A stretch of DNA of 64,000 nucleotides from NCBI RefSeq assembly GCF_013315695.1, contig NZ_CP054353.1; one strand, written 5' to 3'. The DNA is from Escherichia coli. Its GTDB lineage: Bacteria; Pseudomonadota; Gammaproteobacteria; Enterobacterales; Enterobacteriaceae. The position numbers are program-made. Shown here piece by piece: positions 55,701 to 58,700 of the stretch (the stretch's first letter is position 1; each line of letters opens with the position of its first letter).

Positions 55701-58700
55701 CCTGCGCTTCGGATGCACTTAAAATAGCCGTCTGACGCTGTTGTTCTGCGAGATAACAGGTGTCATGGCTGACGCCCTGCGCCTGGCAATCTACGATGCG
55801 GGAAGTGGGTGAACTACAGCCAGCCAGTAATATAACCGCCAGCAGGGAAAACGATTTAATGGAGCTATTCATCATTGTTAACCTTAAATAATGTACGGAA
55901 AATTGCGAATAAGAAATTGCTGTTAAAATTAGAACGAATATCCCACGCCGACACCCGCACCGAAATCAGATTGTGTATCCGCAGAAATACCTGCTTTAAG
56001 TACCGTATGCGTTCCGGCATTAAAAGATGTTCCTACAGACACCGCAGATTCACCGTTGAACGTTCCCGCTCCCGCTGACACCATCATCACGTCACCGGTT
56101 TTCACCTGTGGTTGTGAGGCGATAGCGATGGCAGATGCAGTTCCCGCATTGGCTTCTTTACGATTGTCCTCAACTTCGTTTTTCAGAGAATCGAAATGGT
56201 TATTGAGCGTGTTAATTTGTTGGCTGTTATCTGCGACCCGTTTTTGCGTGTTGGTTAACTGTTGCTGCGTTTGGGTTACGTCTTGTGACAGGCTGTCAAT
56301 TTGTTCATGTGCCTGGACAGACTTCTGCGCCAGACTTTGCATTTGTTTATCGTATTGAGCCCTTTCTTTTTGCTGTTGTGCTGCCACATCGGTTGTCAGT
56401 GCATTCATTTTCTGCCCTTGTTCCGTGGTAGTGCGCTGATTAGCCTCATTTTGAGCCGCCAGCCTGGCATTAATCATCTCCTGATAATGCGCGGTATTTT
56501 GCGTATCTCCAGTCGCGGCGAGCGTTTTTTGTGTGGCTACGATCTGCGCCTGTTGCTCTGTAATTTGCGTTTGCTGGGCATCAGTTACCGCAGACTGTCG
56601 GGCGTTGATCATGCTCTGATAACGGGCGGTTGTCTGTACATCACCTGTAGCGGCAACGGTTTTTTGTCCTGCGTCAGGATCTGTCTGGACAGGGGGAGTC
56701 TGAGTGGTATCAGGTGTTTCAGAAGGGATGTAGTGATGTTCAGTCAAATAGGTATACGCAGCGGGGCTGTTGTCTGTGCGTTCTAAAAAGCGGGTAATCT
56801 TCTGCTCAATCTCCGATTGCGACATGCCGGAGTTAATGGCTGAAAGCTCTGTTGCCGCCGCTTCAATGGTATCACCAGCTAAAACAACAGGGCTGGATAT
56901 TGCTGAAATTATGAGTGCCAGTAAAGCTACGTTTACAGTTTTCATTCATTTTCTCTTGTTCAAAATAAGTCGCATTAATGTTTCTATAAGAAACAAATAA
57001 TATTGTTTTAAGAAATAAACTGCGTTGCAATTTGATCGAAATCTACGCCGCCATTTGTGTGATGTAAAGCGCATTTTTGTCTTGTGTAAGCGTAAACACC
57101 ACCAATAAGAAACAAAAATAGTTTCTTATATAAATAAAAAAGGAAATTATTTCGTGCTCTTTCAATGTAAAAAAGAGTAAAGACTTGTTTTGATAAGCGA
57201 AATAAATTCTGTTTCTGGACTAAACGTGAAGCGGTTCCTGATGTGTGCTAAAATGCGTTTCTTTGATAAATCTCAATTTTTAAGAGGTTTACGCCAGGCA
57301 GGAAATTTAAATGAATGAATTTGAGAAGATTTTTAATGAAATGAATCTGGACCGGGCATTGCTACCGATCCTTTTTCGTTCGAACCGGTCGACAGTGTGG
57401 AAGTATTTAAGCGGCGATAGTACGGCTCCTGCCTCTGCCATGTCGCTGATCATGCTGTTGCAGTTGATCCAGAAACGAAACCCCGATCTGTTAGCCGAAT
57501 GGTTAACGCTTTCTGATTTCACCATTCCGCCAGAAGTTTACCTGGACCAACCTGATTACTGGAAAGGGTGGGTGTATACCCAACACAAGGTCAATAAAAA
57601 CGTCCTGGAATATCTAAAAAAACACTATCCGGATGAAGACCAAAAAAGTATGGGTAAAGGCCGGGAAGAGTAATTTTGCCTCTACTCGGCTATATGCCGG
57701 ATGCGGCGCAAGCGCCTTATCTGGCCTACGATTCGGGCATATTTTGTAGGCATGATAAGACGCGTCAGCGTCGCGTCAGGCGATGACCGCACGGATGATC
57801 AGCGTTATCCCTTCTATCGCAATGACTTCAACATGCGTACCTGCACCGAGATCCTCGCTGGCGCTGACAGGCCATGAACTGTCGCCGACGCGCATATGAC
57901 CGCGCCCGTTGACCAGTGGAGATTCCAGCACAAAACGTCGGCCAATCAGCTGCTGCCCGCGCTGGTTTAAATGACTGTCGCTGTGCTTTTGTTCGCGCAC
58001 CCGCCGCGACAACCATTTCCACCACAGCCAGGCGGCGAGCAGCGTCAGGATGGCAAACATCACCCCTTGCCACTCCCAACCCAGCGGCACCAGCCAGACC
58101 ACCAGGCCGGTAATCACCGCTGCCACGCCGCTCCACAACAAATAACCATTTCCGCCCAGCATCTCGGCTGCCAGCAGCAACCCGCCGAGACTGAGCCAGA
58201 AAATATGTGGATGAACGACCATTAACTCCATCATGGCTGAGTCCGTTTGTTGGCGCTGTCTTTCACCAGCTCGGCAATCCCGGCAATCGACCCCATCAGG
58301 CTGCTGGCCTCTAATGGCATCATCACCACTTTGCTGTTACTGGACGAACCGATCTGCTGTAACGCTTCGGTGTATTTCTGTGCGACGAAGTAGTTCACCG
58401 CCTGAATATCACCGGAGGCGATGGCTTCAGACACCATTTTGGTGGCGCGGGCTTCTGCTTCAGCGGAACGTTCACGCGCTTCGGCCTGTAAGAATGCCGA
58501 CTGACGTTCACCTTCCGCTTTCAGGATTTGCGACTGTTTTTCACCTTCGGCTTTGAGGATTTCCGCCTGACGGATCCCTTCCGCTTCGAGGATGTAAGCG
58601 CGTTTGGTACGTTCCGCTTTCATCTGCGCGTTCATTGAAGAGATAAGCTCTGCCGGTGGGCGCACGTCACGAATTTCAATACGGGTGACTTTAATCCCCC

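What the first reader, a model, noticed from the sequence alone, without database searches (positions are those of the whole stretch)
56946..57673. AT-rich divergent control region with palindromes and a 120-aa unknown protein
The 365-bp gap between the YadA-like gene and the divergent 120-aa ORF is very AT-rich. It contains a direct repeat ataagaaacaaa (about 56982 and 57103) and a perfect palindrome taagaaac-aaaaata-gtttctta (57104-57126). The 120-aa protein has a segment (RSNRSTVWKYLSGD) that resembles a helix-turn-helix and could be a local regulator of the adhesin cluster.
Basis: inference. Interest (0 to 1): 0.4.

Follow-up and report, generated by a model that had tools for sequence, protein, structure and literature searches.

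The report
Small HTH regulator beside adhesin operon
The 120-aa gene is the uncharacterised z0640 of E. coli O-island 29: it has a predicted helix-turn-helix DNA-binding fold, always sits back-to-back with a short YadA-type surface adhesin operon, and the DNA between them carries conserved GTTTCT repeats that are probably its binding sites, so it is most likely an ordinary but unannotated local regulator.

Summary
The gap is 365 bp and 31% GC, against 55% for the window. The 12-mer repeat lies at 56986 and 57105, and a 9+9 palindrome at 57105-57129. Each is marginal on its own (p about 0.06). Both are built from one hexamer, GTTTCT/AGAAAC, which occurs 6 times against 0.3 expected.

Within Escherichia the hexamer arms are invariant while the spacers vary (p=2e-5). 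The hexamer sits at fixed positions in other genera, where synonymous sites are saturated.

The window is E. coli, and the locus is O-island 29 of O157:H7. The 120-aa ORF is z0640. No Pfam or NCBIfam family matches it.

In 13 of 14 informative loci, at 7 or more chromosomal sites, its homologues lie divergent from a YadA-anchor gene. The distant Hafnia clade has a different recognition helix and a matching change of half-site.

Best reading: an autoregulated local regulator, probably a repressor, of the YadA-type operon only, not the giant adhesin cluster. Binding is untested.

Side finding: the published "transcription factor GmrA" (z0639) is the neighbouring YadA-anchor protein.

The parts
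57311..57673 (+). 120-aa ORF, the orthologue of z0640 of E. coli O157:H7 O-island 29. It is a cytoplasmic protein with an N-terminal XRE-type HTH (about residues 1-65) and a family-specific helical C-terminal part.
   Evidence: ORF. The published z0640 qPCR primer maps to 57356-57377. Model pLDDT is 87. Purifying selection is shown.
57353..57412 (+). Codons for helix 2, the turn and helix 3 (residues 15-34). The recognition helix reads N25-R-S-T-V-W-K31.
   Evidence: Secondary structure of the model. Alignment to the HigA2 HTH. N25, R26, S27, T28 and K31 are invariant in the GTTTCT clade.
57246..57254 (+). Predicted extended -10 promoter element TGcTAAAAT for the 120-aa gene. The predicted transcription start is about 57261.
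   Evidence: Read from the sequence. Conserved as TG(G/C)TAAAAT in most related loci across genera, with variants in L006 and L010. Within Escherichia 8 of 9 positions are invariant. This is an inference, with no start-site data.
57257..57271 (+). GTTTCT-TTG-ATAAAT: hexamer H6 plus an imperfect partner, overlapping the predicted transcription start of the 120-aa gene. Candidate autoregulatory operator.
   Evidence: GTTTCTT is invariant across genera at 54-58 nt before the ATG. It is invariant within Escherichia.
57199..57216 (+). GAAAT-N7-GTTTCT: hexamer H5 with an imperfect partner, at about -45 to -62 of the predicted regulator promoter.
   Evidence: The GTTTCT or GTTTTT hexamer (followed by G or A) is conserved across genera about 100 nt before the ATG. 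Within Escherichia the arms are invariant and the spacer varies.
57105..57129 (.). Central perfect palindrome ATAAGAAAC-N7-GTTTCTTAT (hexamers H3 and H4), between the two divergent promoters, at about -84 of the predicted adhesin promoter.
   Evidence: I15. Arms are 12/12 invariant and the spacer 2/7 invariant in seven Escherichia sequences. The same architecture appears as GGAAAC-N7-GTTTCT in Symbiopectobacterium and AAGAAC-N7-GTTC(T/C)T in Hafnia.
57040..57068 (-). Predicted sigma-70 promoter of the YadA-type operon: TTTACA, 17-nt spacer, TAGATT. The predicted start is about 57033, giving a 5' UTR of about 88 nt.
   Evidence: Promoter scan. This is the best-conserved block of the gap across genera. 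Within Escherichia 27 of 29 positions are invariant. This is an inference, with no start-site data.
56980..56994 (.). Perfect palindrome GTTTCT-ATA-AGAAAC (hexamers H1 and H2), in the predicted 5' UTR of the adhesin gene at about +40 to +54.
   Evidence: H1 is invariant in the five most closely related genera-level loci and in Escherichia. The 3-nt spacer is 0/3 invariant but its length is fixed.
55929..56945 (-). 338-aa YadA-family trimeric autotransporter (orthologue of z0639, published as 'GmrA'), the first gene of the divergent operon.
   Evidence: Pfam YadA_anchor at residues 278-337, E=2.6e-11. Sequence matches to the AtaA and Hia anchors in the PDB. RefSeq annotation. The published gmrA cloning primer maps to 56945..56922.
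55585..55875 (-). 5' part of the lipoprotein gene (z0638 type, 140 aa when intact), cut off by IS1. The 3' part lies at 54676-54817.
   Evidence: Comparison with the intact locus in strain GF131.
54476..54679 (-). 67-aa predicted single-pass membrane protein, the last gene of the module.
   Evidence: ORF. Annotated in related strains. A 64-70-aa gene in the same position is seen in other genera.

Best explanation
The 120-aa gene (z0640 of O-island 29) encodes a small cytoplasmic DNA-binding protein with an XRE/Cro-type helix-turn-helix. It is the dedicated local regulator of the operon transcribed away from it. That operon holds a YadA-type trimeric autotransporter, a lipoprotein and a 67-aa membrane protein.

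The protein, probably as a dimer, recognises the hexamer GTTTCT/AGAAAC. The hexamer is arranged as inverted repeats at four places in the 365-bp gap:
- over the predicted start of its own promoter, which would give autorepression;
- about 50 bp upstream of that promoter;
- between the two promoters, at about -84 of the adhesin promoter;
- in the adhesin 5' UTR, at about +47.

I think it most likely acts as a repressor or modulator that keeps the adhesin operon off until a signal arrives, with the sites that flank the adhesin promoter acting together.

Shown: the fold, the synteny, the conserved promoter-like blocks, and the hexamer excess with selective conservation of the arms. Inferred: that this protein is what binds the hexamers, the positions of the transcription starts, and the sign of regulation.
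For: Fold:
- The AlphaFold2 model has pLDDT 87 and pTM 0.73.
- The top Foldseek hit is the HigA2 HTH domain.
- An independent sequence profile finds only HigA2 in the PDB, at E=0.28. Pfam finds only the MqsA HTH part, at E=0.12.

Synteny:
- Homologues down to about 30% identity lie 230-410 bp divergent from a YadA_anchor gene. This holds in E. coli, Pseudocitrobacter, Lelliottia, Hafnia and unnamed metagenome contigs, at 7 or more different chromosomal sites.

DNA:
- The hexamer occurs 6 times against 0.31 expected in the window's gap (0 of 2000 shuffles), and 30 times against 1.9 in seven gaps.
- Its positions are conserved at about 35, 176, 266 and 312 nt from the adhesin ATG, although synonymous sites between these genera are saturated.
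- Within Escherichia the arms H1-H4 are 23/24 invariant and their spacers 2/10 (Fisher p=2e-5). Other positions in the same stretch are 79/155 invariant.

Covariation of protein and site:
- Every locus whose recognition helix reads NRSTxxK has 3-6 hexamers. Loci with a changed helix have 0-1.
- The Hafnia clade (PRNTIFN) has AAGAAC-N7-GTTC(T/C)T at the equivalent place.

Sign of regulation, from PMC5826968:
- A gmrA clone that carries the gap but not z0640 complements the island deletion, and the z0640 deletion leaves motility at wild-type level. z0640 is therefore not needed for expression of the adhesin gene.
- All three island genes fall from 20-96 RPKM to 0 on HeLa attachment, which fits joint control.
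Against: - No binding, footprint or reporter data exist for this protein.
- Sequence-profile membership in any HTH family is not significant (E 0.12-0.28). The DNA-binding call rests on a predicted structure.
- The two perfect palindromes have opposite geometry, GTTTCT-N3-AGAAAC against AGAAAC-N7-GTTTCT. One symmetric dimer cannot read both in the same way.
- The transcription starts are predicted, not measured.
- If it were a strong repressor of z0639, deleting it might be expected to raise motility, and the paper reports no change.
- The covariation argument rests on few and phylogenetically related clades.
- One homologue (L015) has no YadA-anchor gene within the 4.9-kb contig.
Confidence: 0.55

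Rival explanations
1. The same protein binds the same sites, but as an activator or anti-silencer. It would bind the GTTTCT repeats in the AT-rich gap and counteract H-NS-type silencing of the horizontally acquired adhesin operon, while activating its own promoter.
For: - The gap is 31% GC in a 55% GC genome, typical of H-NS-silenced acquired DNA (general knowledge).
- The central palindrome lies at about -84 of the predicted adhesin promoter, a possible upstream activator position.
- Both divergent transcripts rise and fall together in published RNA-seq.
Against: - The adhesin gene is expressed and complements from a plasmid lacking z0640.
- The z0640 deletion does not copy the motility defect of the z0639 deletion.
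- A hexamer lies right over the predicted start of the regulator's own promoter, a position typical of repression.
Confidence: 0.2
2. The 120-aa protein only regulates itself, or has targets elsewhere. The GTTTCT repeats near the adhesin promoter would then be read by a different, host-encoded regulator.
For: - The z0640 deletion gave no phenotype in the only published test.
- The different geometry of the palindromes would fit more than one binding protein.
- Its nearest structural relatives, Aca proteins, antitoxins and C-proteins, are mostly autoregulators of their own small operons (general knowledge).
Against: - The gene pair stays together at 7 or more chromosomal sites in several genera.
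- The hexamer changes together with the recognition helix in Hafnia, which a conserved host factor would not explain.
- The same hexamer sits at the regulator's own promoter and at the adhesin side.
- No toxin, anti-CRISPR, restriction-modification or defence gene partner is present.
Confidence: 0.13
3. The protein is not a DNA-binding regulator. The HTH-like fold would serve protein-protein contacts or RNA binding, for example control of translation of the adhesin mRNA, as reported for Aca2. The repeats would then act at the RNA level.
For: - Palindrome H1-H2 lies in the predicted 5' UTR and can form a 7-bp hairpin.
Against: - The folding energy of both 5' UTRs is no better than shuffles (z -0.14 and +0.56).
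- No Rfam family matches the gap.
- Most hexamers lie upstream of both predicted transcription starts, so they would not be in either mRNA.
Confidence: 0.07
4. The repeats and palindromes are chance features of AT-rich DNA, and the ORF is an unrelated hitch-hiker.
For: On their own, the 9+9 palindrome and the 12-mer repeat each occur in about 6% of shuffles.
Against: - The hexamer excess was reached by 0 of 2000 shuffles.
- The hexamer cluster is unique in the 64-kb window.
- Arms are invariant while spacers vary (p=2e-5).
- Positions are conserved across genera with saturated synonymous sites.
- The gene pair is conserved across genera.
Confidence: 0.02

Closest known systems
HTH domains of the MqsA / HigA2 type (XRE superfamily antitoxins; PDB 3fmy, 3gn5, 5j9i, 8a0x)
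   Same: - They are the best sequence-level and Foldseek matches.
- The helix layout is the same.
- The sequence pattern is the same, with RxT..W/Y..G in helix 3 followed by P..A..L..L in helix 4.
- These proteins are dimers that bind short palindromes at their own promoter. As I recall, the MqsA operator is ACCT-N3-AGGT, a geometry like GTTTCT-N3-AGAAAC.
   Different: - No toxin gene partner is present in any locus.
- There is no zinc-binding N-terminal domain (MqsA) and no disordered toxin-binding N-terminus (HigA2).
- The HTH is N-terminal here and is followed by a family-specific extension of about 45 aa.
- E-values are not significant (0.12-0.28).
Aca2 / YdiL-like small HTH proteins (PDB 7vjo, 1s4k, 2ox6)
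   Same: - They are a similar size (about 118-120 aa).
- They share the plan of an N-terminal HTH plus a small helical C-terminal part.
- They act as autoregulators that bind inverted repeats (the function is from my knowledge of the Aca literature).
   Different: - Only the HTH superposes; whole-chain rmsd is 6-7 A.
- There is no phage or anti-CRISPR context.
- AFDB50 full-length matches are limited to its own family in Enterobacterales.
NadR-NadA of Neisseria meningitidis (a dedicated repressor of a trimeric autotransporter adhesin gene; from my own knowledge, not checked here)
   Same: It works in the same way: a small dimeric repressor binds several operators around the promoter of a trimeric autotransporter adhesin gene and keeps it off until a host signal arrives.
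   Different: - NadR is a MarR-family winged-helix protein and is not encoded next to nadA.
- There is no sequence or fold relationship with the present XRE-type protein.
[not shown]
   Same: It lies in the same island, and it is the only gene of this locus that has been studied experimentally.
   Different: GmrA is not the 120-aa protein. By the paper's own primers it is the neighbouring 338-aa YadA-anchor protein. The 120-aa gene is z0640, reported to have no effect on motility.

Membership tests
XRE / Cro-C1 type helix-turn-helix DNA-binding proteins (lambda-repressor-like fold) | A compact helical bundle in which helices 2 and 3 form the helix-turn-helix. | tested here: met
   [not shown]
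XRE / Cro-C1 type helix-turn-helix DNA-binding proteins (lambda-repressor-like fold) | A significant match to a curated sequence profile of the family (Pfam HTH_3 and relatives, or NCBIfam). | tested here: not met
   Pfam gives only MqsA_antitoxin at E=0.12. Across 17 family members the best values are 0.012 (MqsA_antitoxin) and 0.067 (Xre-like-HTH). NCBIfam gives no hit. The profile against PDB sequences finds HigA2 at E=0.28.
XRE / Cro-C1 type helix-turn-helix DNA-binding proteins (lambda-repressor-like fold) | Sequence-specific binding to (pseudo)palindromic DNA. | not testable with these tools
   Only indirect evidence is available: conserved GTTTCT inverted repeats next to the gene, and covariation with the recognition helix.
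Type II antitoxins of the MqsA / HigA2 kind | An adjacent, co-transcribed toxin gene (MqsR or HigB2). | tested here: not met
   The gene is monocistronic here, followed by REP-like elements and the convergent ybbJ. In all the loci inspected in detail the constant neighbour is a YadA-anchor gene, not a toxin.
Anti-CRISPR-associated (Aca) or anti-phage defence regulators | A phage or mobile-element context with an adjacent acr or defence gene. | tested here: not met
   There are no PHROG family matches below E=0.01 and no PADLOC matches. The locus is chromosomal, with no phage genes in the flanks.
Trimeric autotransporter adhesins (the neighbouring 338-aa protein) | A C-terminal YadA-type membrane anchor, a coiled-coil stalk and an N-terminal signal peptide. 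| tested here: met
   YadA_anchor covers model positions 1-60 of 60 at residues 278-337, E=2.6e-11. The AtaA and Hia anchors in the PDB match at E 6e-7 to 5e-5. Coiled-coil-type hits cover residues about 100-270. The N-terminus MKTVNVALLALIISAISSPVVLA looks like a signal peptide, read from the sequence and not run through a predictor.

The most novel reading that the evidence does not exclude
Probability: 0.3. Interest if true: 0.6.

Novelty: new member of a known kind. Interest (0 to 1): 0.42.

Why it matters
- About a quarter of complete E. coli genomes (1415 of 5426) carry this module, including O157:H7, O145:H28, O55:H7 and strains listed in PMC5826968 as uropathogenic, neonatal-meningitis-associated and avian pathogenic (UPEC, NMEC, APEC). 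The 120-aa gene is annotated 'hypothetical protein' everywhere.
- Assigning it an HTH fold and candidate operators gives a directly testable explanation for the sharp control of the neighbouring gene. That gene is reported to switch with temperature, pH, osmolarity and host contact.
- It also flags a conflict in the literature. The island gene reviewed as a transcriptional activator (GmrA) has the sequence features of a secreted outer-membrane trimeric autotransporter, while the island's only HTH-fold protein has been set aside as having no phenotype.
- Beyond that, this is a conventional arrangement of a divergent, autoregulated small regulator.

Tried and rejected
- **Sequence libraries.** NCBIfam, PHROGs, PADLOC and a phmmer search of the PDB gave nothing significant for the 120-aa protein.
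- **Pfam across the family.** Scanning all 17 family members against Pfam added no significant family.
- **Reaching distant relatives.** The family stayed at 19 representatives at 50% identity and 29 clusters at 90% identity, and never merged with an annotated family.
- **Species-representative genomes.** The first attempt to scan 100,044 species genomes failed because the alignment was too diverse. The second attempt found only 5 loci.
- **RNA explanations.** Rfam gave only sub-threshold REP-like naRNA4 hits downstream of the ORF. Both 5' UTRs fold no better than shuffles.
- **Dam-dependent phase variation.** Rejected: the gap holds a single GATC (57034-57037), and it is not conserved in O157.
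- **CRP site.** A CRP-like half-site (TGTGA at 57059-57063) overlaps the adhesin -35 element, but its second half matches only 3 of 5, so I did not pursue it.
- **Known regulators that might read GTTTCT.** I considered OmpR, PhoP, RcsB and CpxR from memory, and none fits. This was not tested against a motif library.
- **Other hexamer sites in the window.** The one other perfect GTTTCT-N3-AGAAAC lies at 6130, inside a ybaN-like coding sequence, and is probably chance.
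Full report
**What is there**

The window is E. coli chromosome. The finding lies in an accessory module between cueR (54065-54472) and ybbJ (57776-58234). On the minus strand the module holds three genes:
- a 67-aa membrane protein (54476-54679);
- a lipoprotein gene, here split by an IS1 element at 54818-55584;
- a 338-aa YadA-family trimeric autotransporter (55929-56945).

A 365-bp gap follows, and then the 120-aa ORF on the plus strand (57311-57673). The 821 bp around the gap occur in 1415 of 5426 complete E. coli genomes. The copy is always single and chromosomal, and the 120-aa gene is always annotated 'hypothetical protein'.

**The observation**

The gap is 31.0% GC against 54.6% for the window. 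The 12-mer ATAAGAAACAAA is repeated exactly at 56986 and 57105. The palindrome ATAAGAAAC-N7-GTTTCTTAT is perfect at 57105-57129.

Each feature alone is marginal, at about 6% of dinucleotide shuffles. Both are made of one hexamer, GTTTCT/AGAAAC. It occurs six times in the gap against 0.31 expected, and 0 of 2000 shuffles reached that count. Nowhere else in the window does it occur more than twice per 400 bp. A second perfect palindrome, GTTTCT-ATA-AGAAAC, lies at 56980-56994.

**The protein**

No Pfam, NCBIfam, PHROG, PADLOC or PDB sequence match is significant. The best are the HTH part of MqsA at E=0.12 and HigA2 at E=0.28.

The family is small and confined to Enterobacterales:
- 19 representatives at 50% identity out of 1.8 billion proteins;
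- 29 clusters at 90% identity;
- 5 of 100,044 species genomes.

The last 45 or so residues (conserved motif PPEVYL.QP.YWKGW) match nothing outside the family.

The gene is under purifying selection. Within E. coli dN/dS is 0.06. Against other genera pN is 0.14-0.28 with saturated synonymous sites.

**Context elsewhere**

Homologues down to about 30% identity are divergently transcribed from a gene with a YadA anchor, 230-410 bp away. This holds in E. coli, Pseudocitrobacter, Lelliottia (two adhesin genes in tandem), Hafnia and several metagenome contigs, and the flanking genes differ in each. In Symbiopectobacterium the divergent gene is a 174-aa protein without a detectable anchor. One 4.9-kb contig shows no adhesin gene, and two contigs are too short to tell.

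A lipoprotein of about 140 aa and a small protein of about 65 aa usually follow the adhesin gene. The module also occurs in an E. coli strain that lacks the giant adhesin and type I secretion cluster. It is therefore a portable unit, independent of that cluster.

**The gap as a control region**

Alignment across genera shows conserved blocks in otherwise scrambled DNA.
- The strongest block (57037-57072) is a minus-strand promoter match, TTTACA-17-TAGATT. It would start the adhesin transcript near 57033.
- The second block (57243-57282) holds an extended -10 element, TGcTAAAAT (57246-57254). The hexamer GTTTCT (57257-57262) follows at the predicted start of the 120-aa gene's transcript.

The hexamer keeps its positions at about 35, 176, 266 and 312 nt from the adhesin ATG in most loci.

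In seven Escherichia sequences the arms of the two perfect palindromes are 23/24 invariant, and their spacers are 2/10 invariant at fixed length. The 7-nt spacer has six different sequences. Fisher's test of arms against spacers gives p=2e-5, and arms against the other positions of the same stretch gives p=1e-5. This is the signature of protein-recognised half-sites.

**Who binds them**

All loci whose protein keeps the recognition helix N-R-S-T-x-x-K carry 3-6 hexamers. Loci with a changed helix carry 0-1.

The Hafnia clade has helix PRNTIFN and no GTTTC at all. It does have a palindrome AAGAAC-N7-GTTC(T/C)T at the equivalent place, conserved between two Hafnia loci.

This covariation points to the divergent HTH protein rather than a host-wide factor. 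The clades are few and related, and no binding has been measured.

**Link to the literature**

- the gmrA cloning primer is the start of the 338-aa YadA-anchor ORF;
- the z0640 qPCR primer lies inside the 120-aa ORF;
- the gmrA complementation clone begins at 57264, so it carries the whole gap but not z0640.

The 120-aa gene is therefore z0640. Deleting it left motility and fliC/motA expression unchanged. All three island genes drop from 20-96 RPKM to 0 on HeLa attachment. gmrA transcription depends strongly on temperature, pH, osmolarity and host contact. No later paper addresses z0640 or the control of the island.

**How it most likely works**

Three points remain unexplained:
- the two perfect palindromes have opposite geometry (N3 against N7);
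- the role of the C-terminal part is unknown;
- the z0640 deletion has no reported phenotype.

RNA-level explanations found no support.

**Side finding**

The protein published as the transcription factor GmrA has three features of an outer-membrane trimeric autotransporter:
- a signal-peptide-like N-terminus;
- a coiled-coil stalk;
- a complete YadA anchor (Pfam E=2.6e-11), with sequence matches to the solved AtaA and Hia anchors.

Its coiled coil attracts weak hits to SMC, JetC, LmuB and 'TMF_DNA_bd' models. Hits of this kind could explain a database-predicted 'DNA-binding domain'. I cannot judge the published binding experiments, but the sequence argues for re-examination.

**Verdict**

This is a real but conventional regulatory module, and a new and unannotated member of the XRE-type regulator kind. 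It has a clear set of testable operators, and it raises a useful correction for the O-island 29 literature.

Noticed in passing
[not shown]
   Followed up: partly
window 54818-55584: An IS1 element, flanked by a duplicated TGAATCATT, is inserted in the z0638-type lipoprotein gene. The gene is intact (140 aa) in strain GF131 and in O157. The adhesin operon of this strain is therefore damaged downstream of the adhesin gene.
   Followed up: yes
window 50738-52896 (+): The type I secretion permease/ATPase gene next to the giant adhesin is split into two overlapping ORFs of 221 and 498 aa. It spans 2159 nt here against 2163 nt for the intact 720-aa gene in strain GF131. This is a likely frameshift that would disable export of the giant adhesin.
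   Followed up: partly
window 32375-50734 (+): A 6119-aa protein of Ig-like repeats, annotated in relatives as an Ig-like domain protein or BapA-related adhesin SiiEA, with its type I secretion genes. It has no GTTTCT cluster upstream and is absent from some strains that carry the small module.
   Followed up: partly
L023 1720-3030, L024 1245-2294, L025 1614-2663 (E. coli relatives): The adhesin gene varies in length between E. coli lineages: 338 aa here and in O157, 436 aa in O145:H28, and differently annotated or truncated forms elsewhere. The 120-aa regulator and the regulator-proximal half of the gap are almost invariant.
   Followed up: partly
window 57659-57815: REP-like palindromic elements lie between the 120-aa gene and the convergent ybbJ. 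They give sub-threshold matches to Rfam naRNA4 (32 bits against a gathering score of 59.5). In O157 the sequence similarity breaks off at the same place.
   Followed up: no
window 6130-6144: The only other perfect GTTTCT-N3-AGAAAC in the window lies inside a ybaN-like membrane-protein ORF (5949-6326). It is probably chance.
   Followed up: partly
L013 1220-4641 (Lelliottia): In Lelliottia the regulator homologue faces two YadA-anchor genes in tandem (533 and 584 aa), followed by a 76-aa protein with a weak ParE-like hit. This looks like an expanded version of the same module.
   Followed up: no
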